A stretch of DNA of 19,381 nt from a virus (lineage: Duplodnaviria > Heunggongvirae > Uroviricota > Caudoviricetes), in IMG/VR virus record IMGVR_UViG_2861069343_000003, positions 1 through 19,381 of that record; one strand, written 5' to 3'. The position numbers and the translations under genes are program-made. Below are positions 1-18,055 of this stretch, piece after piece (position 1 is the first letter of the stretch; every line of letters starts with the position of its first letter). Below the pieces are notes generated by a model. That model saw only the letters and a list, made by a program, of their open reading frames with translations. It had not been told where the DNA came from and did no database searches.

Positions 1-552
1 ATGCATGACAATATTTGGTTTACATATAAAGCACGTATCCAAGCGCACCATCGACTAGAATGGCTTGAAAAACACTCTCAATTTATCCTCGTTTGGTATG
101 CTATATTGAGTGCGGTACTTTCAATTGTAACGTTGCGATTTCCAAAGGTTCTAGGAGATAATACAGATATCGTTGCGGCGATACTTTCAGTGGCTCTACT
201 GGGTATTTCTCTGATCGTATCTAACCTAGATTTTCGTGGTCGAGCAATAGCTATGAGAAGGAATTATATTGCACTACAGCGACTCTATTTTGACATTACC
301 ACCAGTCAACAGTTATCTCTTGAACAGAAAGAAAAATATTTTAATTTGCTCAATGAGGTTGAGAATCACCGTGACATAGATGATAAAATTTCAAGGGTAA
401 CTCAAGTTGGACTTAAGACGAGGATCCCCACACAAAAAGAAAAAATAATTGTTATTTTATGGATATTACTTCGAATATTTATTACTGCCGCACTTTATAT
501 ACTCCCATTAATATATCTTTGGATTGACTATGACTGCAAGCAGAATTTTTAA
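1..552 (+). CDS. Small multi-pass membrane protein (183 aa), possibly SLATT-like; candidate effector partner of the downstream reverse transcriptase
   Basis: ORF starts at the first base of the window, so the true start may lie upstream. Three hydrophobic helices by eye (FILVWYAILSAVLSIVTL, IVAAILSVALLGISLIVSNL, IIVILWILLRIFITAALYILPLIYLWI) flank a charged helical segment. The 3' end overlaps the RT start by about 25 nt in another frame, suggesting translational coupling. AT-rich. Confidence 0.6.
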   Translation: MHDNIWFTYKARIQAHHRLEWLEKHSQFILVWYAILSAVLSIVTLRFPKVLGDNTDIVAAILSVALLGISLIVSNLDFRGRAIAMRRNYIALQRLYFDITTSQQLSLEQKEKYFNLLNEVENHRDIDDKISRVTQVGLKTRIPTQKEKIIVILWILLRIFITAALYILPLIYLWIDYDCKQNF

Positions 553-1900
553 AAAGTCATTCTCGAAAAAAAACCTTCTAAAAGTATACTCTGAAAAAAT
601 CAAAGAATCAGGAGCGATTGGCATAGATCGGATTCGCCCATCAAAACTTGATTTGACAATAAAAAATGAGATCACTTTCATTTTTGAAAAGGTTAATTCT
701 GGCAATTACAAATTTACAGCATATAAAGAAAAATTAATATCTAAAGGCGCTAACTCTACACCCAGACAGATTTCCATACCAACTGCTAGGGACAGAATTA
801 CTCTTAGAGCTCTCTGTGAATGCCTTACGGAAATATATCCTAAGTCCAGATTAAAACTACCACATACAGTAATTGACTCATTGAAAGAAGCATTAAACAA
901 CAGTCTATATGCTGAATATGCAAAAATAGATCTTAAAAGTTTCTATCCTTCAATTGAACATAAATTGATAATTAATGCAATAAAAAATAAAATTAGAAAA
1001 AAAGAAATTAGACAGTTAATAACATCATCATTAATCGTGCCTACTGTAAGTGGAACCACAGGAAGCAAAGGTATCCCTAATAATACCAGAGGAGTACCTC
1101 AGGGATTAGCGATATCAAACATTTTAGCTGAAATATCACTATCTAATTTCGATGATGAAATCAATAAAATGCATGACATATGGTACATGCGATACGTTGA
1201 TGACATTCTTATTTTAACACCAAAATATCAAGCAACAAAAATAGCTTCTCATATCATTGATAAGCTTCAATCATTAAATTTAAACCCACATCCATTAAAT
1301 GAAGAGAACTCAAAATCCAAAGTAGGCAGTTTGGATGAAAGTTTTAACTTTTTGGGATACCACATAGAAAATCGAGAATTATTGATAAAACATGAGAGCA
1401 TTCTTAGATTTGAGTCATCCTTAGCAAAAATTTTTACTGCATATAGGCACGCTCTACTACAAGCTAAAAGTAAGCGTGATAAAGAACGAGCTGTTGCATA
1501 TTGTCAGTGGAAACTAAATCTCAGAATTACGGGATGTGTGTTTGAAGGTAAACGATTGGGATGGGTATCGTACTTCTCACAAATAACCTCAACAGCTCAA
1601 CTTCGCTCTGTTAATCATACTATCAATAATCTTATCCGCCGATTCGGCCTTTCATCAGAAATAAAACCAAAATCTTTGATTAAAACTTTCTATGAACTCC
1701 GCAGAGGTAGAGCGGAGACTTTTAAATACATACCTAACTTTGACAATCTACATATATCTCAGAAACGAGAACTTGTTTCTATGTGGATAGGTAAAGAGAA
1801 GGAAAAAAAACTTAGCAATAGTGAAATAGAGAGGAAGTTTAAATTTAAAATTGCGAAATCAGTAAAAGAGCTTGAAGAGGATATTTCAGGAATATCATAG
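524..1900 (+). CDS. Reverse transcriptase, 458 aa (defence-type RT: retron, UG/Abi or DRT-like; subfamily not assignable by eye)
   Basis: RT motifs are visible in the translation: IPTARDRITLRAL (motif 1/2), KIDLKSFYPSIEHKLI (motif A), GVPQGLAISNILAEISL (motif B'), YMRYVDDILIL (YxDD catalytic motif C), FLGYHIEN (motif E). A helical C-terminal extension of about 160 aa follows. Position 524 is a TTG; ATG at 530 is the more likely start. Confidence 0.88.
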   Translation: MTMTASRIFKKSFSKKNLLKVYSEKIKESGAIGIDRIRPSKLDLTIKNEITFIFEKVNSGNYKFTAYKEKLISKGANSTPRQISIPTARDRITLRALCECLTEIYPKSRLKLPHTVIDSLKEALNNSLYAEYAKIDLKSFYPSIEHKLIINAIKNKIRKKEIRQLITSSLIVPTVSGTTGSKGIPNNTRGVPQGLAISNILAEISLSNFDDEINKMHDIWYMRYVDDILILTPKYQATKIASHIIDKLQSLNLNPHPLNEENSKSKVGSLDESFNFLGYHIENRELLIKHESILRFESSLAKIFTAYRHALLQAKSKRDKERAVAYCQWKLNLRITGCVFEGKRLGWVSYFSQITSTAQLRSVNHTINNLIRRFGLSSEIKPKSLIKTFYELRRGRAETFKYIPNFDNLHISQKRELVSMWIGKEKEKKLSNSEIERKFKFKIAKSVKELEEDISGIS

Positions 1901-1963
1901 ATATGTAATCCATTAAGTCATTAAAATATATCGCAATAAACACACTATTTAAACTCACAAACC

Positions 1964-2005
1964 AGCCGCAGTATCCTGCCATGGCAAGTTGCTGCGGCTT
2001 TTTAT
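1964..2005 (+). terminator. Rho-independent terminator downstream of the RT (possibly bidirectional)
   Basis: Perfect 8-bp GC-rich stem AGCCGCAG (1964-1971) pairs with CTGCGGCT (1992-1999). The loop contains the palindrome TGCCATGGCA. The stem is followed by TTTTTAT on the plus strand. This coincides with the composition change from AT-rich cassette to about 50% GC. Confidence 0.55.
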
Positions 2006-2007
2006 GT

Positions 2008-2295
2008 TCAACGGATCAACAGCCAGATCAGAAGACACGCTACCATCGGCACAGCAAAATCCATCAGGCTTGCCACATCCCATGCGCGTGGATCAAAACC
2101 GCCCCACCACGGCATGTTAATCCGCTTGCCATGCCCGAACATTTCAATCCAGCGATATTATGCTTGGGTGTGTTCGCCCGCAATGAAGAACGTACAACTG
2201 GCTATCGCTCCGTAAACCCAGTTTCCGGTAAAAAGCCCCACCAGTATCTGCGCAGCCACAGCACAAAGTGCATGAAGGAAAGGTGTTATACCCAT
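2008..2295 (-). pseudogene. Small hydrophobic ORF interrupted by an in-frame TAA (45 codons, stop, 5 codons, 44 codons); possible disrupted small membrane-protein gene or two micro-ORFs
   Basis: Hand translation of the minus strand gives MGITPFLHALCAVAAQILVGLFTGNWVYGAIASCTFFIAGEHTQA, a stop at 2158-2160, then in the same frame YRWIE-MFGHGKRINMPWWGGFDPRAWDVASLMDFAVPMVACLLIWLLIR. An AGGA Shine-Dalgarno lies 6-8 nt upstream of the ATG at 2293-2295. Below the 60-aa threshold of the ORF track. Confidence 0.25.
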
Positions 2296-2308
2296 TTTCA
2301 TCCTACCC

Positions 2309-2331
2309 AATAAAACGGGGCGCACAGCCCC
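2309..2331 (-). terminator. Putative intrinsic terminator immediately after stf
   Basis: On the minus strand, 6 nt after the stf stop codon: GGGGC, loop UGUGC, GCCCC, followed by GUUUUAUU. Confidence 0.4.
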
Positions 2332-2337
2332 TTAATA

Positions 2338-5300
2338 TTATTTAGAGGCAAGCGCCGCCTCAATTGCAGATAATCTTTGTTTTAATTCTGCGTTTTCTTC
2401 TTCCAGCGAGGTAACGCGATCATCTGTTTCACGGGCGACCTGAACAAGTAAACCCGTCACGGCGGCGTAGTCAACATTAAGATAGCGCGTTTCTTCGCGT
2501 AGCTCGTTGCCGTCAACGGTCGGGCCTTGCAACTCTTCACCGTAATGGATGAATGAACCAACGGCCTCCGGGATGGCCTCTTCAACTTCCTGGGCTATAA
2601 CCCCGGCGCAATGTGCCCCATTCTCCTTGAGCGTGTACGTGTATCCATTAATTTTGCGGATTGCGTCAGTCGCGTTATCGATAATCTCGATATTTTCTTT
2701 CAGTCTGCGGTCTGATGACTGATTCAGTGTGGTGCAGTTAACACTTCCGTTTACAGTAAGGTTTTGCCCGTCTGTTGTTTTTTGCGCATAAAACAGATAC
2801 GCAGCAGACGTGCCAACCTCAAAAACGTTTTGTCGAGTACTGGAACCCCACACCCTGATACTAACTGGTAGTTCTGAATTACCTGAATTAAGTAAAGCAA
2901 AACGATTGCCAGTCCCTGTTTGTTTTCTAATTACTAAATCGGCAGTTGAGTTAACCTCATCTTTGTTGATGGTTAGCGCCTGTGCTGTAGCACCGTTGAC
3001 AGTACCGCTTAGTAGTTGCACCGCGCCATCATCGCCATTTAACAGCACTTGAGCGCTGCTTCTGTGGTTTTTAAGGCACAACATTTTTCCCGTGTTTTTC
3101 GATGTACCTACTGACCACGCCGAATTGGTTCCAGTGCTATCAACACCGCGCACAGCACAATTCATACTACTGTAATCTGACGTACTCCCCAGCACATCAA
3201 CACGCCCGCCGCCTAATTTTGATGGAGTCGTCGAGGTTAACGACCTGACGGTTACATCCTGATTCCATCCTGAAACAACTACCTGACTCCACTCCGTCCA
3301 ACTTCCATTGACAACAAAGCGAACGTATATGCGTTTTGTGTCGCTGCCAATCAGCGTTTGCATGATCGCATAATCTGAACCCGTAGTTTTACGAGTAGAT
3401 TCTACACGTAGCAAAAAGTTACCGCTTACGCCGTCAGGCTTATTGGTAATATATGCACCACCTGCGACAGTTTTGCATTGATAGTATTTAACAGATCCAG
3501 CCACTGTATTAGCAATGATCAAGTCGTTTAAATCAATAGTCTTGTTGTCAATGGTTTCCGGCTCGATAGATCCCGCCATACCTGCGTTAAATGTGGCAAG
3601 GTCAGAAAAGGTTGTTTTACCGCCTACCGTCACCCCGCTATCGAGTTTTGCTTGTGTGATTACTTTGCTGTTTTTTGTGTGGTCAGAATAACTACCAAAA
3701 TACAAATCACCGTCACCAGCTATACCCAGGTATTTTTGATCAACATCATCAACCTTAAACCCAATGGACAAGTTTTTAATTGTGTTGTTGCTCGTTAAAA
3801 CCAAAGGCGTATGCTGAGATCCTTTGATGCTTACCGTAGTGTTATCGGAACTGGTGCTTGTGTTTGCAAATTCTGCGGTGGCTGCGCTGATTTTGTAAGT
3901 TATTTTTAGATTGCGGGCCTCAACCCTCCCGTCGTGGCGAACAATAAAATCACCACTTGATTCACCTTTTGTGTTTTTCGCCCTGATGTGGATTTCGCCA
4001 AGTGATTCGTTGTTTTCAGGCGACCAAACAACGCCGCGCTCGCTTCCGTCGTTGTTCATGAACCACAGATGAGCGGTTCCTTTTGCTGATTTTAGCCTGA
4101 TAGATGGCGTTTCTTTCAATATATCAAGATCACCAGACATAACATCGCCGGATTTTTTCACCTGCGCATCGTTCGTTACGTTGCCAAGTCCAACATCCGA
4201 TTTCGACGGCTTGTTTGCCGAGCCGTATAGCTCATTGACGCTAAAAGTCCCGTTGTTAAGCCGGGCATCGTTGCCGGCATAGATCTTAATCTTCGCGGTT
4301 GAGTAGTCGATATTGATCGCTGACCACGTATCGCCGCACCGCGAGAATATACCAGAACCGTGGCTATAAATGGTCGCCGTGCTTCCGGTCGGCCTATCAC
4401 CGCGCCAGAAATGACCACCTTTGTCACGCAGAGCTTTTAAGATCTCTACATCGCTCATCTTGCCGTTTGTTGATATCCCGCTACCGCCAAGACCGAAAGC
4501 GCCTGTAAGCATAGCATTAGAAAGACCCAAATCTGCTTTAGTCGGCTTGTTTAACTGGTCGTAAATCCTTACAACGGGGCTTTCAACATATCCAGAAGGC
4601 GCGGCGGTTTGCTTAACAAATCCGTCTGGAATGTATAATTCCGGGCGTGCCGTCTGCGCCAGTACCGCAACCTTTGCGCCGTTGATAAATGCGCGCTGGA
4701 AGGCCCAAACCTCAATAAAGCCGTCACCTTTAACCAGGCCGTAACGCATCTGGTTGTTATCGGTCAGCCCGGTTGACCCTAAGCGGCGTATACTCAGATG
4801 ACGAGAAACATTATCCGCACTAAGCAAAGAAGGCAGACCGCGCGCCGAGATCTCGATAAAGTCAATGTTTCCGTAAGGGGAGCCGTAGTTACCAGCGTTA
4901 GTAACCATTAGCGTTACATGGCAATTGCCGCTTCCGGGATCGGAAAGTTTCGCGATCTTTATGTAAAAAGACTCATTACCAGTAACAACGGGCCAATCGT
5001 ATTGCGTCATCGGGCTGACGAGTCCCCCGACCTTGTCGAGATATTCTTTCGCCTTGTTCTCTGACGCTTTAGCGTTGGTTTCGCTGACCTTTGCTGCTGC
5101 CTCACTATTTTTCGCGTTGGTTTCTGATTTTTTGGCTGCTGTCGCGGAGTTTGCCGATGCAGTTTGTGAGTCTGCTGCCGCCTGTGCGCTGTTATCCGCA
5201 TTCGTCTCAGACGTTTTTGCGGCCTTCGCGGAATTTCCTGCTGCCGTTGCCGAGGAAGCTGCACTGCCGGCGCTCGAGGCAGCGCTCGTTTCTGATGATT

Positions 5301-6039
5301 TTGCCGCCACTTTTGAAGCCGACGCATCCCGGGCTGAGGTGGCAGCTTCTGACGCTTTCGTGGTCGCGGTGGATGCAGAAGTGGCCGCAGATTTTTGTGA
5401 TGCTGCGGCATTCGTTTCTGACGTTTTCGCTGCACCGGCACTGGTGGCTGCCGCGCTTTTTGAAGACTCTGCAGCGGCAGCACTTTTTGATGCTTCAGTA
5501 GCCTTTGTTGATGCCGTTCCTGCGCTGGAAGACGCTGACTGAGCCGACGACGCGGCCTGTCCGGCTGACGTGCTGGCTGCGCGTGCGGAGTCCGCAGCAT
5601 CAGTCGCATGGGTTGCCGCCTCACGGGCTGATGTGCGGGCATCACTGGCTGACTTCTTCGCGGCTGCCGTGTTCTGTGCTACTGCGGACGCGTTACGCGC
5701 CACCTCTTCCACCATCAGTTCAAAGCGGCGCAGTGCCTCCGGACGGACATCATCCTCCGTCATGGCACCGAGAAAATCATTCAGCGTACCCGGTTGTGAG
5801 TCTTCATACACGGTGATGGTCCCGGCATGCGATGGCGGGAAGCCTTCCACCAACAGAATAACGCTGTACTGACCGTACTCAACGTCCATGCTGTAACGCC
5901 CGGCTTCATCCGGGTTTTCTGAGGCCACTGTGTTCACCACCACCGTGGTGCTGTTGCGCCTGGCCTTTAGCTGAATGGTGCAGTTTTGTATCGGCTTACC
6001 TGCGCCATCTTTCAGTACACCTGAAATCCGTACTGCCAT
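2338..6039 (-). CDS. stf: Side tail fibre protein (lambda Stf-like, 1233 aa) with Ala/Ser-rich repeat shaft and C-terminal intramolecular chaperone domain
   Basis: N-terminus MAVRISGVLKDGAGKPIQNCTIQLKARRNSTTVVVNTV...YSMDVEYGQYSVIL matches remembered lambda Stf almost residue for residue. The C-terminus carries SDRRLKENIE...NVDYAAVTGLLVQVARE...LEEENAELKQRL, typical of the self-cleaving tail-fibre/endosialidase chaperone domain. Confidence 0.9.
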   Translation of the reverse strand: MAVRISGVLKDGAGKPIQNCTIQLKARRNSTTVVVNTVASENPDEAGRYSMDVEYGQYSVILLVEGFPPSHAGTITVYEDSQPGTLNDFLGAMTEDDVRPEALRRFELMVEEVARNASAVAQNTAAAKKSASDARTSAREAATHATDAADSARAASTSAGQAASSAQSASSSAGTASTKATEASKSAAAAESSKSAAATSAGAAKTSETNAAASQKSAATSASTATTKASEAATSARDASASKVAAKSSETSAASSAGSAASSATAAGNSAKAAKTSETNADNSAQAAADSQTASANSATAAKKSETNAKNSEAAAKVSETNAKASENKAKEYLDKVGGLVSPMTQYDWPVVTGNESFYIKIAKLSDPGSGNCHVTLMVTNAGNYGSPYGNIDFIEISARGLPSLLSADNVSRHLSIRRLGSTGLTDNNQMRYGLVKGDGFIEVWAFQRAFINGAKVAVLAQTARPELYIPDGFVKQTAAPSGYVESPVVRIYDQLNKPTKADLGLSNAMLTGAFGLGGSGISTNGKMSDVEILKALRDKGGHFWRGDRPTGSTATIYSHGSGIFSRCGDTWSAINIDYSTAKIKIYAGNDARLNNGTFSVNELYGSANKPSKSDVGLGNVTNDAQVKKSGDVMSGDLDILKETPSIRLKSAKGTAHLWFMNNDGSERGVVWSPENNESLGEIHIRAKNTKGESSGDFIVRHDGRVEARNLKITYKISAATAEFANTSTSSDNTTVSIKGSQHTPLVLTSNNTIKNLSIGFKVDDVDQKYLGIAGDGDLYFGSYSDHTKNSKVITQAKLDSGVTVGGKTTFSDLATFNAGMAGSIEPETIDNKTIDLNDLIIANTVAGSVKYYQCKTVAGGAYITNKPDGVSGNFLLRVESTRKTTGSDYAIMQTLIGSDTKRIYVRFVVNGSWTEWSQVVVSGWNQDVTVRSLTSTTPSKLGGGRVDVLGSTSDYSSMNCAVRGVDSTGTNSAWSVGTSKNTGKMLCLKNHRSSAQVLLNGDDGAVQLLSGTVNGATAQALTINKDEVNSTADLVIRKQTGTGNRFALLNSGNSELPVSIRVWGSSTRQNVFEVGTSAAYLFYAQKTTDGQNLTVNGSVNCTTLNQSSDRRLKENIEIIDNATDAIRKINGYTYTLKENGAHCAGVIAQEVEEAIPEAVGSFIHYGEELQGPTVDGNELREETRYLNVDYAAVTGLLVQVARETDDRVTSLEEENAELKQRLSAIEAALASK
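5035..5700 (-). repeat. Low-complexity Ala/Ser/Thr-rich repeat region inside stf (iterated KTSETNA / SAAxSA units)
   Basis: Stf residues about 115-335 are runs of A, S, T, K and E with reiterated KTSETNA(x)NS motifs. The region is GC-rich and repetitive and generates five spurious overlapping ORFs on both strands in the track (5007-5872). Confidence 0.6.
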
Positions 6040-6050
6040 ATTCCCCCCAC

Positions 6051-6075
6051 AAAAAAACCCGCCTGAACCGGCGGG
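6051..6075 (-). terminator. Rho-independent terminator between lom and stf
   Basis: Minus strand: CCCGCC (6070-6075) pairs with GGCGGG (6058-6063) with a 6-nt loop, followed by a run of seven U (plus-strand AAAAAAA at 6051-6057), directly upstream of the stf ribosome-binding site. Confidence 0.5.
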
Positions 6076-6103
6076 CTGTCATAACACTGTGTTACCTGGC
6101 TAA

Positions 6104-6703
6104 TCAGAATTTATAACCGACACCCACGATGAAACCGTCAGTGCGCCAGTCACCACTGCCGGAACCTTCATAAGCAATATCAATGGCCACGGATTCGGTC
6201 GGGTTAAACTGCACGCCAGCCCCCCACGCCAGAGACGTGTTGCTGTGGCGACCGTCATCACTTCCGGTCAGCACATCGTGCGTTTTCCCCTTGTTGTCAG
6301 TTACGCGGAGATAATCCCCGGAGAAAGTCGACACACGGCTGTAAGCCACACCCGCCATCGCATACGCGCTGAACCATTCATTCACGCGCACAGACGGCCC
6401 CGCCATCACGCTGAACCAGCGGTTACGCACGGAATCCTCATGCCAGCGGGTATCGCTGTAATGCGTTTTTTGCTCATCTTCAGCGTTGGCATAACTGAAT
6501 GACGTAATCAGCCCCAGCGTGTCCGTAAACTCATAACGGTATTTCACGTTAATCCCGTTCAGATTATCGCTGCCGGGAGCGTTCGTACGGGCATGAAGAT
6601 ACCCTGCGCTCAGTGTGGCCTGCTGCTCAGACGCCCATGCAGGCGCACCGGATACGGCCAGACAGATGGCTGCGGACAAAATGGCTGCACAAACTTTACG
6701 CAT
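6104..6703 (-). CDS. lom: Lom outer-membrane protein (Ail/Lom/PagC family beta-barrel), 199 aa
   Basis: Signal peptide MRKVCAAILSAAICLAVSGAPAWA, then GINVKYRYEFTD...SVMAGP...AYAMAGVAYSR and a C-terminus DIAYEGSGSGDWRTDGFIVGVGYKF that matches remembered lambda Lom. Sits in the lambda position between J and stf. Confidence 0.9.
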   Translation of the reverse strand: MRKVCAAILSAAICLAVSGAPAWASEQQATLSAGYLHARTNAPGSDNLNGINVKYRYEFTDTLGLITSFSYANAEDEQKTHYSDTRWHEDSVRNRWFSVMAGPSVRVNEWFSAYAMAGVAYSRVSTFSGDYLRVTDNKGKTHDVLTGSDDGRHSNTSLAWGAGVQFNPTESVAIDIAYEGSGSGDWRTDGFIVGVGYKF

Positions 6704-6771: not shown

Positions 6772-9700
6772 TCAGCTAATCGTGATACCTGCTGTGGATT
6801 TCTTCATCACCACAACCAGCAAATCACTGATACTGGCTGTGGGATACCAGTCATTTACCAGCCACGCTGATACCGAAAACTCCAGCGTCATGTGACCGCG
6901 ACCAGCAGGCATATCAATAACACCTGTATAAACCAGCGTATTATCCAGCGCGGTACGGTTATAAATTTCAGCACCGTTTTTCTTCACTATCAGGCGGCAT
7001 GACGAATAAATATCGTTATTCTCCCGCTCATGTTTAGCGCCACGAAACGCCACCGCGGGAATAACAATCTGCCGGTCAAACGGCTGATCGTCATAAACCC
7101 TGACGGTAATGGTCCCTGATGGCCACCGCTCCGGTGCACGGGAGTCCCGGGGGAAAGCTTTGCCCACTGTTTTAACGAGATCGCCTTCAATCTGGTTCGC
7201 AGACAGTTTTCCCAGAACCCGACAGTTTTCATTTATCGTGACATTGTTGAGCGTCCCGGCGTTCGCATTCACACTGCCACTGATATCCGCATTTTTCGCC
7301 GTCAGTCGCCCGTCCGGTGTAAGGGAAAATACCGGAGGATTACCGCCGCTGGTAATGGTGGGAGCCGTCAGATATTTCAGGAACACTTCGTTCATGAATA
7401 TCTGATCGCCCTGACCAACAAACATCGGCTTTGTGTTGCCATTCGCAGGATTAATCATCGCAATCCTGTCTGCCGCCAGCAGCACCTGACTCTGCATGCC
7501 GTCAGGGGTGTTCTCAATACCGGCACCAATACCCGCGATATAAAGGCGTCCGTCCTGCATCTGCTGCAGCTTCACAGCCCACATGCTGTTCAGGTTATTA
7601 TTTGTATCAACCTGAACCTTCTGTATCTGCTGAATTGCCGCACTCTGGTCTTCCAGTTTCTTATTGACGGTCTGTGTGATTTCATTGCTGACATCCGTAA
7701 TGGATGTCCTGATTTCAGCCAGGTCAGGCGCAAGCTGACCGTTATCAATCTGCGTCCACAGCTCCTGAGCCAGATGGGTTTTCCCTATCTCGCCTTTGAA
7801 AAAATCCAGATAGCCGGATGCGTCATCACTCGGCTGACCAACAGCCTCCACGAATGCCGATTTGCCAACGGTGTTCACACTGCGAACGTAAAAATAATAA
7901 TTATGGCCCGGTTTGATATTGATACTGGCGGCTATCCAGTACAACGCCGTACCAAGATAGCGTGCTGTGGTTTCAACCTGCCTGATATCCGCAATCCGCT
8001 TTTCCGAGAACCAGAACTCAAACTGTACCGTCGGATCATAAACCGCAAGATGCGGCGTGGCGGTTATCTGAAAATAGCCCGGCGTCAGCTCAATCCGCGA
8101 CGGCGCTGCCGGTGCGGCAATCCGGAACGATACCGACGCCGGATCGCCCTGCTGCCCCCACGCATTTACTGCCCGGACTGTCAGCCTGTAGTTCCCCAGA
8201 GCCAGTTGTGTGAAGCGGTAAGTGGTTTCCGTCGTCCGGGCCGTGCTGACCAGCCGCTCACTGCCGTCATCCGCTGCCACGGTCAGGCGAAGCAGGAAGC
8301 TCACGCCCTTCACCACCTTCGGCGTGTCCCAGCGGGCCAGCACCTGGTATTCCCCGCTGTCTGCGGTGACTTCTGCGGTCAGATGCTGCACTGCTGGCGG
8401 CGTGACACCATTCACCGTGCCGCTCTGGTCGCCGTCAAAGTGCGCCCCGTTATCCACGATGGCCTCTTTTTCCGGTACATGCTGCACGGCAGTGATGGCA
8501 TACGTGCCGTCATCGTTCTCACGGATACTCACGCAGCGGAACAGGCGCTGGCGCAGCGTCGGCAGCTTCAGCCCCCACACGCTGTACTCGGCAACGCCGT
8601 CAGGAAGCCGGCTCACTTTCACCTTCACGCCGTCGGTGATGGACTGGACCTCCACGCTGACCGGATTGCCACTTCCGTCAACCAGGCTTATCAGCGTGGT
8701 ACCGGAGGATGGCAGCGTGATTTCACGGTCGAGCGTCAGCGTCCGGGTCTGGCTGTTCACCGCCAGCACGCGCCCGCCGGTGCTGATACCGGCATAGTCA
8801 TCATCGCAGATTTCAATGACATCGCCCGGTACATGGCGAAGCCCTTCAGCACCCACGCTGAAGTCCACGGTCTGCGTTTCCAGCAGCTCCGTTTTAATCA
8901 GCCACAGCCCGGCGCGGTGCGCCTGCCCCCGACTGGTACAGCCAAACGCATCCATCTTCGTGACGTTACGACCATAACGGGCAATGGCCTGCGAGTCCTC
9001 CACAAGCTCTGTTGCCGTCTCCCAGCCGTTATCCGGGTCAATCCAGTTCACTTCAACGGCATTATGGCGGTCTTTCAGGGCGCTGAAGCTGTAGCGGAAT
9101 GGTGCGCCATCATCCGGCATCACCACATTACTGCGGTTATAGGTCCACACCTTATCCGATGGTCGGTCCTGCACGAACGTCAGCGTCTGCCCGTTCCATA
9201 CCGGCATACAGCGCATCGCCGAGCAGAAATCACTGAGCACATCCCACGCCTTACGTTGTGTGGTCAGGTAAGCGTTACAGGTGATGCGCGGCTCCGTACC
9301 GCCAAAGCCGTCCGGCACCGACTGGTCGCAATTCTGGCCGATGACATACAGCGCCCATTTGTCCACATCCGCCGCACCGAGACGTTTCCCCATGCCGTAG
9401 CGCGGGTGGGTCAGCATATCCCACAGACACCAGGCCATGTTGTTGCTGTATGACGGTTTAAACGTCCCGTCCCAGATACCGCTGTATTGCCGCGTCTGCG
9501 GGTTATAATTCGACGGCACCTGCAGAATACGCCCGCGAAGATGATAATTACGGCTCACCTGCTGGCTGCCGAACTGCTCCGAATCCACCTGTACGCCGAC
9601 CAGTGCCGTGTTCGGGTAGCACTGTTTCACATCGATGATTTCGGTGTATGACGACCAGAGCGTTTTGTTCTGCAGCTGGTCTGTGGTGCTGTCCGGCGTC

Positions 9701-10251
9701 ATCCTGCGCATCCGGATGTTGAACGGGCGCGGCGGCAGATTATCCACCACTACCGAGGCCAGATACTGCGAGGTGGTTTTGCCCTTAATGGTGATGTCTT
9801 TTTCCGTCACCCAGCCACCGTTACGCTGTATCTGAACCAGCAGGCGGACTTCCGACGGATTCCGGTCCCCCTTTGAAGTGGTTTCCACCAGTGCCTGCAC
9901 ACCGAAGGTAAAGCGCAGACGGTCAATGTTTGCCGACGTGATGGTCCGGGTGATCGGCGTGTCGTATTTCACTTCCGTGCCCAGTACCGTCTCGGAACCT
10001 GATGATTCAAATCCCTCCGGCGGTGTCTGTTCCTGCTCACCTGCCCGGAACACCACCGTGACACCGGAGATGTTAGTATTCCCCTCACTGTCCAGCACCG
10101 GTGTACTGTTCAGCAGCACGCTTTTTAATCCATCCACCGGACCTTCAACCGGCCCTTCGCTGATGGCATCGATCACACTCAGCAACTGCGTGGACTTCAG
10201 GTTGTCCTTTGCTTCGCGCGGGGTATGCCCCTTACTGCTGCCTTTACCCAT
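6772..10251 (-). CDS. J: Tail tip attachment / host-specificity protein J (1159 aa)
   Basis: N-terminus [34 protein letters not shown] and long stretches throughout match remembered lambda J. The last 150-250 aa diverge from lambda J. Confidence 0.92.
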
Positions 10252-11599: not shown

Positions 11600-12088
11600 T
11601 TACTGCGAAAGTTTGTTAATGGAAAGGAAGCCGCCAAAGTTGCCGACGTTATTGCGGAACTTACAACCGCTCAGGCATTTGCTGCATTTATCCTTCGTGA
11701 TATCGGACGTTGGCTGGTCATATTCATCCGCGACAGCCGGACCGCTATAACCGCACTCGTCACCGCGATAGGTCCAGGTGCAGGTGTTGGCCAGCATGAT
11801 ACGTCCCGGAAAAACAGCGCCATCCGTTTCCGTCGGCGTGGACAGTACAAAGGAGGCACTCACCGCGCTCAGTTCGCTGCACTGCTCAATGCGCCAGCGG
11901 CTGATCACCTCCTGCTCCGGATCGGCATAACTGTTTCCGTTGACGAAGTTCACCGCATCCAGAAAACGGGCGTAAACATTACGCCGGACCACCGTTCCGC
12001 CGACCAGACTCTGCATATCTTCCGCCATCCCGGTGACCATACCGTACAGGTTAGAAACCGTCAGCGTGGGGCGCGTACCGCTCTTTTT
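11600..12088 (-). pseudogene. L: 5'-truncated tail tip protein L (C-terminal 146-160 aa only; N-terminal 70-85 aa missing)
   Basis: The ORF translation MVTGMAEDMQSLVGGTVVRR...CSKCLSGCKFRNNVGNFGGFLSINKLSQ matches the C-terminal two-thirds of lambda gpL. Reading the same frame upstream gives KKSGTRPTLTVSNLYG (lambda: GKGTSTRPTLTVSNLYG), then unrelated sequence and a stop at 12107-12109. Confidence 0.75.
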
Positions 12089-12207
12089 ACAAAACAGAGA
12101 AGAGCATCACCGGACGACGGGCTCATAACCCAATCCATCCGGGCGGCAGTCACCGCAGGTGTTCTTCTCTGTTTTGTGGAGAAACCAACCGACCTTGCAG
12201 GGTCGAT

Positions 12208-12588
12208 ATGATGGGGAGCAGCAAAATGGCTAGCGAACGCAGTACTGATGTGCAGGCATTTATCGGGGAGCTGGACGGCGGCGTATTTGAAACCAAAATC
12301 GGCGCAGTTCTCAGTGAAGTCGCTTCCGGTGTGATGAACACGAAAACCAAAGGTAAGGTCTCGCTCAACCTGGAAATCGAACCGTTTGATGAGAACCGTG
12401 TGAAAATCAAACACAAACTCTCATATGTTCGCCCGACTAACCGCGGGAAAATTTCCGAAGAAGACACCACCGAAACGCCGATGTATGTCAATCGCGGTGG
12501 TCGCCTGACTATTCTGCAGGAAGACCAGGGACAATTACTGACTCTTGCCGGTGAACCTGACGGAAAACTCCGCGCAGCAGGTCATTAA
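12208..12588 (+). CDS. yfdP: YfdP-like hypothetical protein (CPS-53/KplE1-type prophage gene)
   Basis: ORF of 126 aa (MMGSSKMASERSTDVQAFIGELDGG...). Starting at the third Met (12226) gives 120 aa, the length I recall for K-12 YfdP. It lies immediately upstream of the yfdQ/R/S/T-like genes in the same order as in K-12. Assignment is from memory. Confidence 0.55.
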   Translation: MMGSSKMASERSTDVQAFIGELDGGVFETKIGAVLSEVASGVMNTKTKGKVSLNLEIEPFDENRVKIKHKLSYVRPTNRGKISEEDTTETPMYVNRGGRLTILQEDQGQLLTLAGEPDGKLRAAGH

Positions 12589-12653
12589 TATCGTTCTTAA
12601 TTAACTGATTATTTATCTCATCACTGAATATCTTTATATAGTGAGGACTTATT

Positions 12654-15442: not shown

Positions 15443-18055
15443 CTAATCACCCTGTGATGTAAAATAAAACCAATGGTATTCTAGAGCTTGCATAGACAAC
15501 CCAACCTTGTCCCTCAATAGGACACCATTCAGCTCCTGATAGTACCTATCGCGCACCATATCACTTACGTGAATCCTTAAAGTCGCTGGGTCAATAGATA
15601 TTAGATAGTTATCAAAGAGACGATGTATATCAGTACGCAATAACAAGCCATTTTTTATATGATTATCCTTATCTCCTCTGTAAGGATAAATATGAGCTGC
15701 ATCAAGTACTGCTATTGTTTTGCACCCAGTAAAGGCACATTGCCCCCAAACGTTTATCAGTTTATTTCTGAAGTCGCTTTGACCTATACGTATCGTGACG
15801 TTTCTATTTATAACCTTTCGTTCATCAGAGTTATTTATTTTAAAACTCCCTGCTGTTGAAAAATCAAATTTTTCAGTCGCACTAAATATTTTTTTAGATT
15901 GTTTTTTTACTTTTGCAAGCTGTAAATCTGACTTTATTTGTAAGGGTTTTGAGTTTTCTTCATCAAACGATGGAAGTTGAAGTTCTTTAATCATGCTGGT
16001 AGATAGAAAATTTTTGTAACTCATTAACTTAAAATCTAATCCTCGCTCATAACGAATTTTAGAGAGCACTATTGCAGCTTCTTCAATGTATTTAAAACTA
16101 CTTTTCCTTTTATCCCATAATTGAGATAAACAATCTGCATTTAACCTATCATATCTTGATAAAATCTCACCCAAACTGCTGGCTTTAGCGGCGCTATCAT
16201 AGTTTATATACTGTTTTTCTTGGGAATCTTCAATGGAATCCAGAATAAAATTTATATTTACATGATTATCTGCATCTGCATCTGCAGATGCAGATGAATC
16301 ATTAAAATTATCGTAGTCAAGAGAATTTTGATCACTCCAAATAGGTAGCGATAGATAGCAAATATTATCAATGCTGTCGTCCACCAACATTAATTTTTGG
16401 TGGAGTAAAAATAATATAACTGAAGCTTCAAGGTAATTCATTTCTTGTGACAAGAATTTTTCTTTAAGCATATCAAAGTCATATTGTACGTATTCATTTT
16501 TTTTCTTTGATATTACGGAGAGTTGCTCTTCACTTAAGACCACTGGCCTGTCTTCTGATATATTACGAAGTAAGTATGAAATCAATTTTTTTTGATTTTT
16601 TTTAGAATCTTCAGACCTAGGAGGTTCGAGAAACACACCTTCAAGTCTATCCAATGCTTTAAGGCAACTTCCCGCAAGCCTAGTCATCGCATCTTTTCTT
16701 GTTTGAATTAGAGGATCTGCATAGATAACAAAATTATCCCCATTACGAATATGAGCTATTTCAAGCTGATATACATCTAGATTTTTTATAAGTTTAAATA
16801 CAAATCCGTATTTTTGCATTCTATGCAAAGTCAGTGTCGGTATAATATCTTTATTAGATTCTTCATCCAAATTATAGTTTTTTATTCTTTTGTACAACCA
16901 ATTTGTTGCAGAGGAAGAGCAAATTAACTCATTATATTGAATTTTACTATTTTTAGTTATCAGATTTAGAAGAGACATTCCAAACAATGCCTGAATACAA
17001 TCTACATAATAAGATATAGTTGTATAATCTGGATGTCCTTTATAGGGGAGAGAATCTATTGAAATAAAACCTGAGTTATAGAATCTCATAAAGTTTTTTT
17101 CAGATAACACCATGATCCCTAACGTAGTTCTGTCAATAACATTCTGTCCATTTTTTATTATCTCAAGTAGGCTTACTGAAGCTAGTAAGGAAATATAATG
17201 CGAACCTAAAGTAGCGAGATCTCTGTGCGAACTTATAGATCTATTTTTACCCTTTATTCTAGGGGGTATAAAAGCCTGGATTGAATTAAAGTTATTTGAA
17301 AAACCAAAAGCCATGTTCAATTCATTGTTGATGTAACACTCTTTAACATTCGGTTTCTGTACGCCACCCCATGCTGAAATAATACTATTAGATTTTAATA
17401 TTTGTTTTTTATTGTTTTTCAAATTCAAATGATTGCAAACTAAACTGGCAACATTATTCTCTGCTTTTTTTTTACTCTCACCACTTCCGATAAATATCTG
17501 TCCATTAGGAAGTGCTATTTCAGACTCATATATTGGTGCATGCTCGGTCCCACCAGCCAAGGTGGTTTTGTATGTAGGGATTATGTGTTGATGTCTTTGG
17601 AAATATTCATGTAAAAGAGTTTTTGGGGGTTTGCCAACAAATGACTCCGTAATAGAAAGGCTTTCAACAAAAAATTTGAGATGTAATATGATATCACAAT
17701 TAGATATCGCCCCTAGGTAAAATTGAAATATTTGAATTATCATAGAAGATGAGTTGATTTCTTCTTGTTTTACTCCAGGACCAAATTCTGTTTGTTGGTA
17801 GACTTTTGTTAAGGGAAAATTTGTAACAACAAGCTCTCTTAGTTTTTTCTTCAGGCTGCTAGTCATAATGCTTAAATTGTTACCATCCGCACCTTCTATA
17901 CTCAGAGACCGACAAGCGCAGATTAAATCCTCAAGCGACTTACCAACTGATACAGTTGCGTTAAACAATTCAGTATTGCAATTAAAAGATGAACGATGAC
18001 TTATCTGAATATAATTTTCGTTGATATGATTTATGAATAACTTATTCATTTTCAC
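15443..18055 (-). CDS. 870-aa multidomain protein: N-terminal catalytically degenerate RNase III-like domain plus dsRBD, central region with a possible second RNase III-like repeat, C-terminal HNH nuclease domain; candidate defence effector
   Basis: By-eye alignment to E. coli RNase III across residues 15-210: ISHRSS / LTHRSA, FGPGVKQ / [22 protein letters not shown] / [37 protein letters not shown] / [29 protein letters not shown] / [23 protein letters not shown] / GTGSSRRKAEQAAA. The ERLEFLGD box is replaced by TELFNATV and the D/E of ADTVEA by Q/Q. C-terminus (residues 750-845): [11 protein letters not shown]...GQCAFTGC...LDAAHIYP...[15 protein letters not shown], an HNH-type motif. Strongly AT-rich. 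The track start at 18055 is a GTG; ATG at 18049 is the alternative. Confidence 0.85.
   Translation of the reverse strand: [870 protein letters not shown]

What the first reader, a model, noticed from the sequence alone, without database searches (positions are those of the whole stretch)
2341..2742. Side tail fibre ends in a self-cleaving chaperone domain and there is no separate tfa gene
The last 130 residues of Stf (from SDRRLKENIE to the end) look like the intramolecular chaperone domain that is auto-cleaved after fibre trimerisation. Lambda instead uses a separate tfa gene downstream of stf. Here the space downstream of stf holds only a terminator and a disrupted small ORF. The fibre is therefore a different type from lambda's at its distal receptor-binding end.
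Basis: partly seen in the sequence, partly recalled or inferred. Interest (0 to 1): 0.4.

Follow-up and report, generated by a model that had tools for sequence, protein, structure and literature searches.

The report
Self-chaperoning side tail fibre, no tfa
The side tail fibre gene of this decayed lambda-like prophage of E. coli ends in a well-known built-in, self-cleaving folding domain (peptidase S74) instead of relying on a separate helper gene as lambda does; this is correct but ordinary, being common and already named this way in public annotation.

Summary
It is not new.

- **The gene.** stf lies at window 2338-6039 on the minus strand and is an intact ORF of 1233 aa. Its N-terminal 284 residues are 86% identical to lambda Stf. 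The rest is unrelated to lambda's distal Stf.
- **The chaperone domain.** Residues 1109-1233 match Pfam Peptidase_S74 (E 2.4e-16, 60 bits against a cut-off of 22). They carry the family's Ser and Lys five residues on (S1109, K1114), each conserved in 42 of 44 homologues. An AlphaFold model (pLDDT 81) has solved intramolecular-chaperone domains as its nine best PDB matches.
- **No tfa.** No tfa homologue exists anywhere in the window (best tblastn E 0.67). Downstream of stf lie a small terminator hairpin, a nonsense-disrupted 95-aa ORF of unknown function (phrog_1443) and a strong bidirectional hairpin.
- **How common it is.** Among 64 complete lambda-type Stf loci from IMG/VR, 16 end in S74 and none of them has a full tfa. 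The 14 with downstream DNA keep only a start-less relic of the tfa 3' end. Thirty-eight lack S74 and are followed at once by tfa.
- **Already annotated.** RefSeq names this protein "S74 family peptidase". The segment occurs in at least 806 of 5426 complete E. coli genomes. Viable phages such as Ayreon carry the same fibre.
- **Not shown.** Cleavage itself is inferred, and the host prophage is a defective remnant.

The parts
2338..6039 (-). stf, side tail fibre gene; intact ORF of 1233 aa (129 kDa)
   Evidence: ORF list and translation. Full-length match to phrog_6578 'tail fiber protein'. 86% identical over its whole length to the Stf of viable phage Ayreon.
5638..6039 (-). N-terminal tail-attachment domain, residues 1-134 (PF08400 phage_tail_N)
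   Evidence: Pfam E 2e-72. Residues 1-94 match PDB chain 9e7m_Ta 'Tail fiber protein' at E 1e-51.
5188..6039 (-). Part shared with lambda Stf, residues 1-284 (86% identity). It includes the start of the Ala/Ser-rich low-complexity shaft.
   Evidence: BLASTP against lambda orf-401. No similarity to lambda beyond this point.
2716..2883 (-). Last domain of the predicted mature fibre, residues 1053-1108. It is similar to a domain in the C-terminal region of T4 proximal long tail fibre gp34.
   Evidence: phmmer hit to 4uxe at E 0.003. Profile hit at E 8.8e-7. Foldseek hit to 4uxg/4uxe at E 1.6e-4.
2713..2715 (-). Codon of Ser1109, the predicted nucleophile. Cleavage is predicted between S1108 and S1109.
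   Evidence: First position of the Pfam S74 match. Ser in 42 of 44 homologues, with position 1108 variable. Equivalent to Ser1264 of T5 pb1, where the T1263-S1264 bond is cut (PMC4690869).
2698..2700 (-). Codon of Lys1114, the predicted general base five residues after the Ser
   Evidence: Lys in 42 of 44 homologues. Equivalent to Lys1269 of T5 pb1 (PMC4690869).
2341..2715 (-). C-terminal intramolecular chaperone domain (peptidase S74), residues 1109-1233, 125 aa, 13.8 kDa. Predicted to be released after trimerisation.
   Evidence: Pfam. Match to the phage S16 gp37 chain 6f45_A: E 3.8e-8 for residues 1093-1160 with the single sequence, and 2.7e-11 with the profile, whose match runs on into the C-terminal helix. 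AlphaFold model pLDDT 81. The nine best Foldseek PDB hits are all intramolecular chaperone domains. Masses.
2344..2469 (-). C-terminal long helix, residues 1191-1232, predicted to form the trimeric coiled coil of the chaperone
   Evidence: DSSP of the model, helix 97-138 of the 139-aa fragment, pLDDT 91-96. T5 pb1 and K1F chaperones end in such a helix (PMC4690869).
2389..2475 (-). Mosaic junction zone inside the chaperone-coding region. To the gene's 5' side the sequence is Ayreon-like. To its 3' side it is like the strain N44 locus.
   Evidence: blastn: window 2389-6100 is 87.6% identical to Ayreon stf, and window 1-2475 is 96.5% identical to E. coli N44 (L005). Both alignments share 2389-2475.
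2317..2331 (-). Terminator-like hairpin (GGGGC-loop-GCCCC) followed by GUUUUAUU, six bases after the stf stop codon
   Evidence: Pattern scan. Fold -12.2 kcal/mol, z -1.2.
2008..2295 (-). Disrupted small ORF, a phrog_1443 family member of unknown function with a hydrophobic 95-aa product. In-frame TAG at 2158-2160. Not a Tfa.
   Evidence: Translation. RefSeq pseudogene with 'internal stop'. The intact homologue in strain N44 matches phrog_1443 at E 3.4e-58 and no Pfam family.
1964..1999 (.). Strong bidirectional hairpin between the small ORF and the convergent reverse-transcriptase gene
   Evidence: Folds of -25.2 and -21.3 kcal/mol, z -4.0 and -3.6, with no shuffle folding as well.

Best explanation
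The gene at 2338-6039 (minus strand) encodes a lambda-family side tail fibre. Its N-terminal 284 residues are lambda-like and include the tail-attachment domain. Its distal 950 residues belong to a different fibre module that carries its own folding device.

The last 125 residues (S1109-K1233) form an intramolecular chaperone of the peptidase S74 family. By analogy with K1F endosialidase and T5 pb1, three chains associate through the C-terminal helices and beta-hairpin 'tentacles' of this domain. That association nucleates folding of the trimeric fibre tip. Once the tip is correctly folded, Ser1109, activated by Lys1114, cuts the S1108-S1109 bond. This would release a 13.8-kDa chaperone fragment and leave a mature fibre of 1108 residues.

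Because folding help is built in, no separate tail fibre assembly gene (tfa) is needed, and none is present.

Shown here: family membership, the catalytic motif, the fold, the absence of tfa, and the mutual exclusion of S74 and tfa among relatives. Inferred: trimerisation-dependent self-cleavage, and that the fibre is still made at all, since the prophage is a remnant.
For: - **Family match.** Pfam PF13884 at E 2.4e-16, 60 bits against a cut-off of 22, placed at the extreme C-terminus.
- **Catalytic motif.** S1109, D1110 and K1114 are each conserved in 42 of 44 homologues, while position 1108 varies. All 16 S74-type Stf from IMG/VR carry S-D-R-x-L-K.
- **Solved relatives by sequence.** Phage S16 gp37 chaperone 6f45_A at E 3.8e-8 with the single sequence and 2.7e-11 with the profile. 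The MyRF auto-processing domain 7dc3 at 1.7e-4.
- **Fold.** The AlphaFold model of residues 1095-1233 has pLDDT 81. Its order of elements is helix, helix, two short strands, helix, long beta hairpin, long C-terminal helix. This is the topology described for T5 pb1 (PMC4690869).
- **Fold search.** The nine best Foldseek PDB hits are all intramolecular chaperones: 7dc3 at 8e-5, 3gw6 at 2e-3, 3gud at 0.057. The next hit has E > 0.5.
- **No tfa.** tblastn best E 0.67. The intact homologue of the downstream ORF (strain N44) hits no Pfam family.
- **Survey of 64 complete lambda-type Stf loci.** 16 end in S74 and none has a full tfa. 14 of the 14 with downstream DNA keep only a start-less relic matching Tfa residues 147-194. 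38 lack S74 and are followed directly by tfa.
- **A viable phage without tfa.** Ayreon, isolated on K-12, has an 86% identical Stf, only the tfa relic and no annotated tfa.
Against: - Self-cleavage was not and cannot be tested here.
- The first, longer monomer model (residues 1001-1233) was poor in the chaperone region (pLDDT 42-71) and matched K1F 3gw6 only at E 0.047.
- T5 pb1 itself was not recovered by sequence or fold search.
- The upstream Arg/Asp 'folding sensor' residues described for T5 could not be mapped.
- The prophage is defective. Gene L is truncated and there are no head, lysis or immunity genes, so the fibre probably cannot be mounted on a virion from this locus.
- Stf is dispensable for lambda-type plaque formation (known from lambda PaPa). 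Ayreon's viability therefore does not prove that its fibre folds without Tfa.
Confidence: 0.85

Rival explanations
1. The gene is a dead relic. The S74 domain is real, but in this decayed prophage stf is no longer expressed or assembled, so the described mechanism is ancestral only.
For: - The element is a remnant of about 19 kb with truncated gene L and no head, tail-tube, lysis, immunity or late-regulator genes (compare the full Ayreon map).
- The neighbouring small ORF has a nonsense mutation.
Against: - The 3.7-kb ORF is intact, and J, lom, I and K are intact too.
- Catalytic residues are preserved.
- The locus is 99.7-100% identical in at least 13 complete genomes. That says little, because these may be one lineage.
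Confidence: 0.45
2. The fibre still needs a separate helper encoded elsewhere. Candidates are the downstream phrog_1443 product, or a Tfa supplied by another prophage in the cell. The S74 domain alone would not be sufficient.
For: - phrog_1443 homologues follow fibre genes in many E. coli prophages, with DNA matches in 1910 of 5426 genomes.
- E. coli genomes usually hold several prophages with tfa genes. This rests on general knowledge and was not counted here.
Against: - phrog_1443 is a short hydrophobic protein with no similarity to Tfa.
- It is also found after a fibre gene for which no S74 domain is annotated, in Nissle 1917. It was not detected downstream of the S74-type Stf loci in the IMG/VR sample, and it is broken here.
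- S74 and full tfa are mutually exclusive in the survey: 0 of 16 against 38 of the 48 that lack S74.
- For T5 pb1, the cleaved fibre fragment is obtained by expressing the fragment with its chaperone domain in E. coli (PMC4690869).
Confidence: 0.07
3. The S74-like domain is retained in the mature fibre. It would be uncleaved and serve as a structural cap or as part of the receptor-binding tip.
For: Cleavage has not been shown for any lambdoid Stf in the papers searched.
Against: - The Ser/Lys pair is strictly conserved, with a variable residue before the Ser. This is the signature of active members (PMC4690869).
- Replacing the Ser with Ala is what blocks cleavage in T5 pb1.
Confidence: 0.06

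Closest known systems
Side tail fibre of Escherichia phage Ayreon (MF807953). Phages mEp460 and vB_EcoS-640R1 carry stf genes that match at the DNA level.
   Same: - Same gene order, J-lom-stf.
- Ayreon Stf is 86% identical in protein over all 1232 aligned residues, including the S74 end. 640R1 is 97.8% identical in DNA over the part held; mEp460 matches only 40% of the query at 88%.
- No functional tfa in Ayreon.
   Different: - Ayreon ends in a longer C-terminal helix (1252 aa) and keeps a start-less tfa 3' relic right after the stop codon.
- The window's last 46 or so codons and everything downstream come from another lineage, the strain N44 type, and there is no relic.
- Ayreon is a viable phage, whereas this is a remnant prophage.
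Phage lambda Stf plus Tfa (Ur-lambda; NC_001416 orf-401/orf-314 and orf-194)
   Same: - N-terminal 284 residues are 86% identical.
- Same position after J and lom.
   Different: - Lambda's distal part (orf-314) has no counterpart here.
- Lambda has no S74 domain and relies on the separate 194-aa Tfa encoded directly downstream.
- This fibre has the built-in chaperone and no tfa.
T5 L-shaped tail fibre pb1, K1F endosialidase and GA-1 neck appendage C-terminal intramolecular chaperone domains (peptidase S74; PDB 3GW6, 3GUD; PMC4690869)
   Same: - C-terminal domain of 120-135 aa, with a Ser at its first residue and a Lys five residues on.
- Helices, then a long beta-hairpin tentacle, then a C-terminal coiled-coil helix.
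- Fold match to 3gw6 (E 2e-3, probability 0.99) and 3gud (probability 0.99).
   Different: - Sequence identity is only 12-18%.
- The mature tip before the cleavage site is not a bullet-shaped domain or a triple beta-helix sialidase stalk. It is a T4 gp34-like domain.
- T5 pb1 was not retrieved by any search here.
Phage S16 long tail fibre distal subunit gp37 (PDB 6F45)
   Same: Closest solved relative by sequence. SSDRRIKKDI aligns with SSDRRLKENI, and the profile match runs on into the C-terminal helix (E 2.7e-11).
   Different: It belongs to a T-even myovirus long tail fibre and has a different N-terminal body.

Membership tests
Peptidase S74 / C-terminal intramolecular chaperone domain (PF13884) | Significant match to the family profile above its curated threshold | tested here: met
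   E 2.4e-16, 60.2 bits against a cut-off of 22, residues 1109-1160. Thirty-seven PHROG families, nearly all annotated as tail fibre or other tail proteins, match the last 150 aa.
Peptidase S74 / C-terminal intramolecular chaperone domain (PF13884) | Position at the extreme C-terminus of a fibre or spike protein | tested here: met
   The domain spans residues 1109-1233 of 1233 in a protein with a lambda Stf N-terminal domain.
Peptidase S74 / C-terminal intramolecular chaperone domain (PF13884) | Conserved Ser at the cleavage site with Lys five residues downstream (Ser1264/Lys1269 in T5 pb1) | tested here: met
   S1109 and K1114 in SDRRLK. Each is conserved in 42 of 44 homologues and in 16 of 16 IMG/VR S74-type Stf. 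Reference residues are from PMC4690869.
Peptidase S74 / C-terminal intramolecular chaperone domain (PF13884) | Characteristic fold: helices and short strands, a long beta-hairpin tentacle, and a C-terminal helix for a trimeric coiled coil | tested here: met
   AlphaFold monomer model with pLDDT 81 and pTM 0.60 has this order of elements. The nine best PDB hits are all chaperone domains: 7dc3, 3gw6, 3gud. The trimer itself was not modelled.
Peptidase S74 / C-terminal intramolecular chaperone domain (PF13884) | Self-cleavage and release of the domain after trimer folding | not testable with these tools
   Needs protein expression with S1109A and K1114A controls, or virion mass spectrometry.
Peptidase S74 / C-terminal intramolecular chaperone domain (PF13884) | Upstream Arg (from a neighbouring chain) and Asp that sense correct folding (Arg1250 and Asp1239 in T5 pb1) | not tested
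   The pre-cleavage domain is of a different type (gp34-like), so the T5 residues could not be aligned. R1069 and E1074 are nearly invariant, but their role is unknown.
Lambda-type side tail fibre (Stf, PF08400 N-terminal domain) | N-terminal tail-attachment domain, encoded after J and lom | tested here: met
   PF08400 at E 2e-72. 86% identity to lambda over residues 1-284. J at 6772-10251 and lom at 6104-6703 lie directly upstream.
Lambda-type side tail fibre (Stf, PF08400 N-terminal domain) | Lambda-type distal receptor-binding part (orf-314) with a separate tfa gene directly downstream | tested here: not met
   tblastn of lambda orf-314 and Tfa against the window gives best E values of 0.81 and 0.67. 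The fibre is therefore lambda-like only in its proximal quarter.

The most novel reading that the evidence does not exclude
The conserved chaperone-coding segment may do more than fold the fibre. It may serve as a portable homology 'handle' for recombination. The stf in this window is a mosaic whose crossover lies inside the S74 region (2389-2475). That crossover joined an Ayreon-type fibre body to a different downstream context, made of phrog_1443 and an RT-UG17/SLATT defence pair, and removed the tfa relic that all sampled relatives keep. On this reading, intact J-lom-stf blocks in decayed prophages persist as reservoirs of fibre modules for incoming lambdoid phages, and S74 ends ease the exchange of both fibre tips and adjacent cargo genes.
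Probability: 0.25. Interest if true: 0.35.

Novelty: already known. Interest (0 to 1): 0.12.

Why it matters
- **Annotation and host range.** A lambdoid fibre that ends in S74 needs no tfa. This is useful when designing chimeric lambda particles. Its distal two-thirds is unrelated to lambda's OmpC-binding end, so its receptor is likely to differ.
- **A small addition.** The survey gives a clean either/or rule among lambda-type Stf genes: an S74 end, or tfa directly downstream. It also shows a tfa 3' scar left behind by module replacement.
- **No change to understanding.** The domain family, its mechanism and this exact architecture are already described and named in public databases.

Tried and rejected
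- **NCBIfam scan of Stf.** No family found, so the RefSeq 'pyocin knob' label could not be reproduced.
- **First structure model (residues 1001-1233).** Mean pLDDT was 69 and the chaperone part was poor. It gave only a weak K1F match at E 0.047. I replaced it with a model of residues 1095-1233.
- **Sequence and profile searches of the PDB.** Neither recovered T5 pb1 or K1F. Only the fold search reached K1F and GA-1.
- **Tandem repeat search in the Ala/Ser-rich shaft.** Nothing found.
- **phrog_1443 as a hidden Tfa.** Rejected. It has no Pfam or Tfa similarity, is short and hydrophobic, also follows a Nissle 1917 fibre gene with no annotated S74 domain, and is broken here.
- **Literature searches for lambdoid Stf with S74.** No dedicated paper found. 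There is general support that a built-in chaperone and a separate Tfa are alternative solutions (PMC11990801).
- **Long alternative-frame ORFs at 5007-5872.** I treat these as artefacts of the low-complexity coding region.
Full report
**What is at the coordinates**

The finding's interval 2341-2742 lies on the minus strand. It encodes residues 1100-1233 of a single intact ORF (2338-6039, 1233 aa). The motif SDRRLKENIE begins at residue 1109 (codon 2713-2715).

Upstream on the same strand are lom (6104-6703) and J (6772-10251). The gene is thus the side tail fibre gene of a lambda-like tail module.

**Is it the chaperone domain?**

- **Pfam.** Peptidase_S74 (PF13884, 'chaperone of endosialidase') matches residues 1109-1160 at E 2.4e-16, 60 bits against a curated cut-off of 22. 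On the isolated last 150 aa it gives E 1.2e-17.
- **Solved structures, single sequence.** A search against all PDB chains finds the long tail fibre distal subunit of phage S16 (6f45_A, E 3.8e-8). SSDRRIKKDI there aligns to SSDRRLKENI here.
- **Solved structures, profile of 44 homologues.** The S16 hit improves to 2.7e-11 and runs on into the C-terminal helix of the domain. The profile also finds the MyRF auto-processing domain (7dc3, 1.7e-4), a known eukaryotic relative of this family.
- **Conservation.** In the 44-sequence alignment, S1109, D1110 and K1114 are each conserved in 42 of 44 sequences. Position 1108 is variable (S, G, T, H, V or L).
- **Match to the T5 pb1 pattern.** In pb1 the T1263-S1264 bond is cut, Ser1264 is activated by Lys1269, a Ser-to-Ala change blocks cleavage, and the 133-aa chaperone ends in a trimeric coiled coil (PMC4690869).

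**Fold**

A first monomer model of residues 1001-1233 was mediocre, with pLDDT 69 overall and 42-71 in the chaperone part. It gave only a weak K1F match.

A model of residues 1095-1233 reached pLDDT 81 and pTM 0.60. Its elements run in the order helix, helix, two short strands, helix, long beta hairpin (1160-1189), long C-terminal helix (1191-1232). That is the order described for pb1.

Its nine best Foldseek matches in the PDB are all intramolecular chaperone domains:
- MyRF 7dc3, E 8e-5.
- K1F endosialidase 3gw6, E 2e-3, probability 0.99.
- GA-1 appendage 3gud, E 0.057, probability 0.99.

Every other hit has E > 0.5.

The domain just before the cleavage site (about residues 1053-1108) resembles a domain in the C-terminal region of T4 gp34. 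It does not resemble the K1F stalk or the pb1 bullet.

**Is there a tfa?**

Lambda's record shows tfa (orf-194) directly after stf. tblastn of lambda Tfa against all six frames of the window gives nothing better than E 0.67. Lambda's distal Stf (orf-314) likewise gives nothing better than E 0.81. Identity to lambda Stf is 86% over residues 1-284 and then stops.

Downstream of the stf stop codon lie, in order:
- A small G+C hairpin with a U run (2317-2331). Its energy is unremarkable (z -1.2).
- A 95-codon ORF (2008-2295) with an in-frame TAG at 2158-2160. RefSeq also flags it as a pseudogene.
- A strong bidirectional hairpin (1964-1999, z about -4).
- The convergent reverse-transcriptase gene.

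The intact version of the small ORF, from strain N44, belongs to phrog_1443 (unknown function). It has no Pfam match and its sequence is hydrophobic. It also follows a fibre gene in Nissle 1917 for which no S74 domain is annotated. It is not a Tfa.

**Context**

The window is 100% identical to the chromosome of E. coli AR437 and a dozen other complete genomes. It lies there between prfC/dinI-like and yjjG. It is a remnant of about 19 kb containing int, a large HNH protein, yfdP/Q/R-like early genes, a truncated L, then K, I, J, lom and stf. Head, tail-tube, lysis and immunity genes are gone; compare the full map of Ayreon. Whether the fibre is still made is unknown.

**How common is this?**

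- RefSeq already names the product 'pyocin knob domain-containing S74 family peptidase'. It names relatives 'prophage tail fiber N-terminal domain and S74 family ...'.
- The 402-base segment has a match covering at least 80% of its length in 806 of 5426 complete E. coli genomes.
- Ayreon carries an Stf 86% identical in protein over its full length, and vB_EcoS-640R1 matches at 97.8% in DNA; mEp460 matches 40% of the query at 88%.
- The whole protein matches phrog_6578.

I fetched the 80 IMG/VR loci closest in the Stf N-terminal domain and classified them. Of 64 complete Stf genes:

| Class | Loci | What follows stf |
|---|---|---|
| Ends in S74 | 16 | None has a full tfa. All 14 with downstream DNA have a start-less fragment matching lambda Tfa residues 147-194, beginning right after the stop codon. 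The other 2 end at the contig edge. |
| No S74 | 38 | A lambda-type tfa follows at once. |
| Ambiguous | 10 | Too little downstream DNA, or a divergent helper. |

All 16 S74-type proteins carry S-D-R-x-L-K. Ayreon has the same unannotated tfa relic.

This either/or pattern, together with the scar, indicates two things. The S74 module replaced the lambda-type distal end along with most of tfa. The built-in chaperone also makes tfa dispensable.

**A local twist**

The window has no tfa relic.

- blastn shows window 2389-6100 is Ayreon-like (87.6% identity).
- Window 1-2475 is 96.5% identical to the prfC locus of strain N44. There the same SLATT gene, RT gene, small ORF and last 46 codons belong to a separate 346-aa S74 fibre protein.

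The crossover therefore lies inside the conserved chaperone-coding region.

**Verdict**

Self-cleavage after trimerisation is the only inferred step. The feature is a routine member of a well-described family in an architecture that public annotation already names. Interest is low.

Noticed in passing
window 1-552 (+) and 524-1900 (+): A SLATT_5 two-transmembrane effector gene overlaps a reverse transcriptase of the PADLOC class RT_UG17 (E 1.2e-158), and the SLATT gene matches PADLOC 'RTasSLATT' (E 1.3e-56). This looks like an RT-plus-SLATT candidate anti-phage defence pair. It sits at the prophage end, between stf and a dinI-like gene next to prfC. The same pair is present at the same site in strain N44.
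   Followed up: partly
window 15443-18055 (-): An 870-aa protein with a double-stranded RNA binding motif (residues 144-210) and an HNH_2 nuclease domain (773-822), encoded between the integrase and the early genes. Phage Ayreon has a 729-aa hypothetical ORF at the same position, which was not compared with this protein, so this may be a variable cargo or defence slot.
   Followed up: partly
window 11600-12600: The prophage is a remnant. Tail gene L lacks its N-terminus (11600-12088) and abuts yfdP/yfdQ/yfdR-like early genes on the other strand. One deletion has apparently removed the region from the early genes through lysis, head and tail-shaft genes.
   Followed up: partly
window 5010-6039 (-); L001 17338-21039: In several assemblies RefSeq splits the intact 1233-aa stf ORF into a 'pseudo' N-terminal fragment and an 890-aa 'S74 family peptidase'. 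In others it annotates one protein. The ORF is uninterrupted in the sequence, so this is an annotation artefact, probably caused by the Ala/Ser-rich stretch.
   Followed up: yes
L007 (Ayreon) 22972-23115; L008 12662-12835 and 13 other IMG/VR loci: A start-less, unannotated relic of the tfa 3' end (lambda Tfa residues 147-194, about 80% identical) begins directly after the stop codon of every S74-type stf sampled. It looks like the scar of the module replacement. The relic is absent from the window.
   Followed up: yes
window 2008-2295 (-); L005 6108-6395; L006 5986-6279: A 95-aa hydrophobic ORF of unknown function (phrog_1443) follows fibre genes of different types in many E. coli prophages, with DNA matches in 1910 of 5426 genomes. 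Here it is inactivated by a nonsense codon at 2158-2160.
   Followed up: partly
window 5007-5872, both strands: Long ORFs of 100-212 aa lie in alternative frames and on the opposite strand across the Ala/Ser-rich part of stf. Their products are of low complexity (Arg/Pro/Gln-rich or Ala/Phe-rich). They are most likely artefacts of the biased coding sequence. Lambda's record annotates a comparable 'orf206b' inside its stf.
   Followed up: no
window 2389-2475: A recombination junction lies inside the chaperone-coding region. The fibre body is Ayreon-like. The last 46 or so codons and all downstream DNA match the strain N44 locus, where they belong to a separate 346-aa S74 fibre protein.
   Followed up: yes
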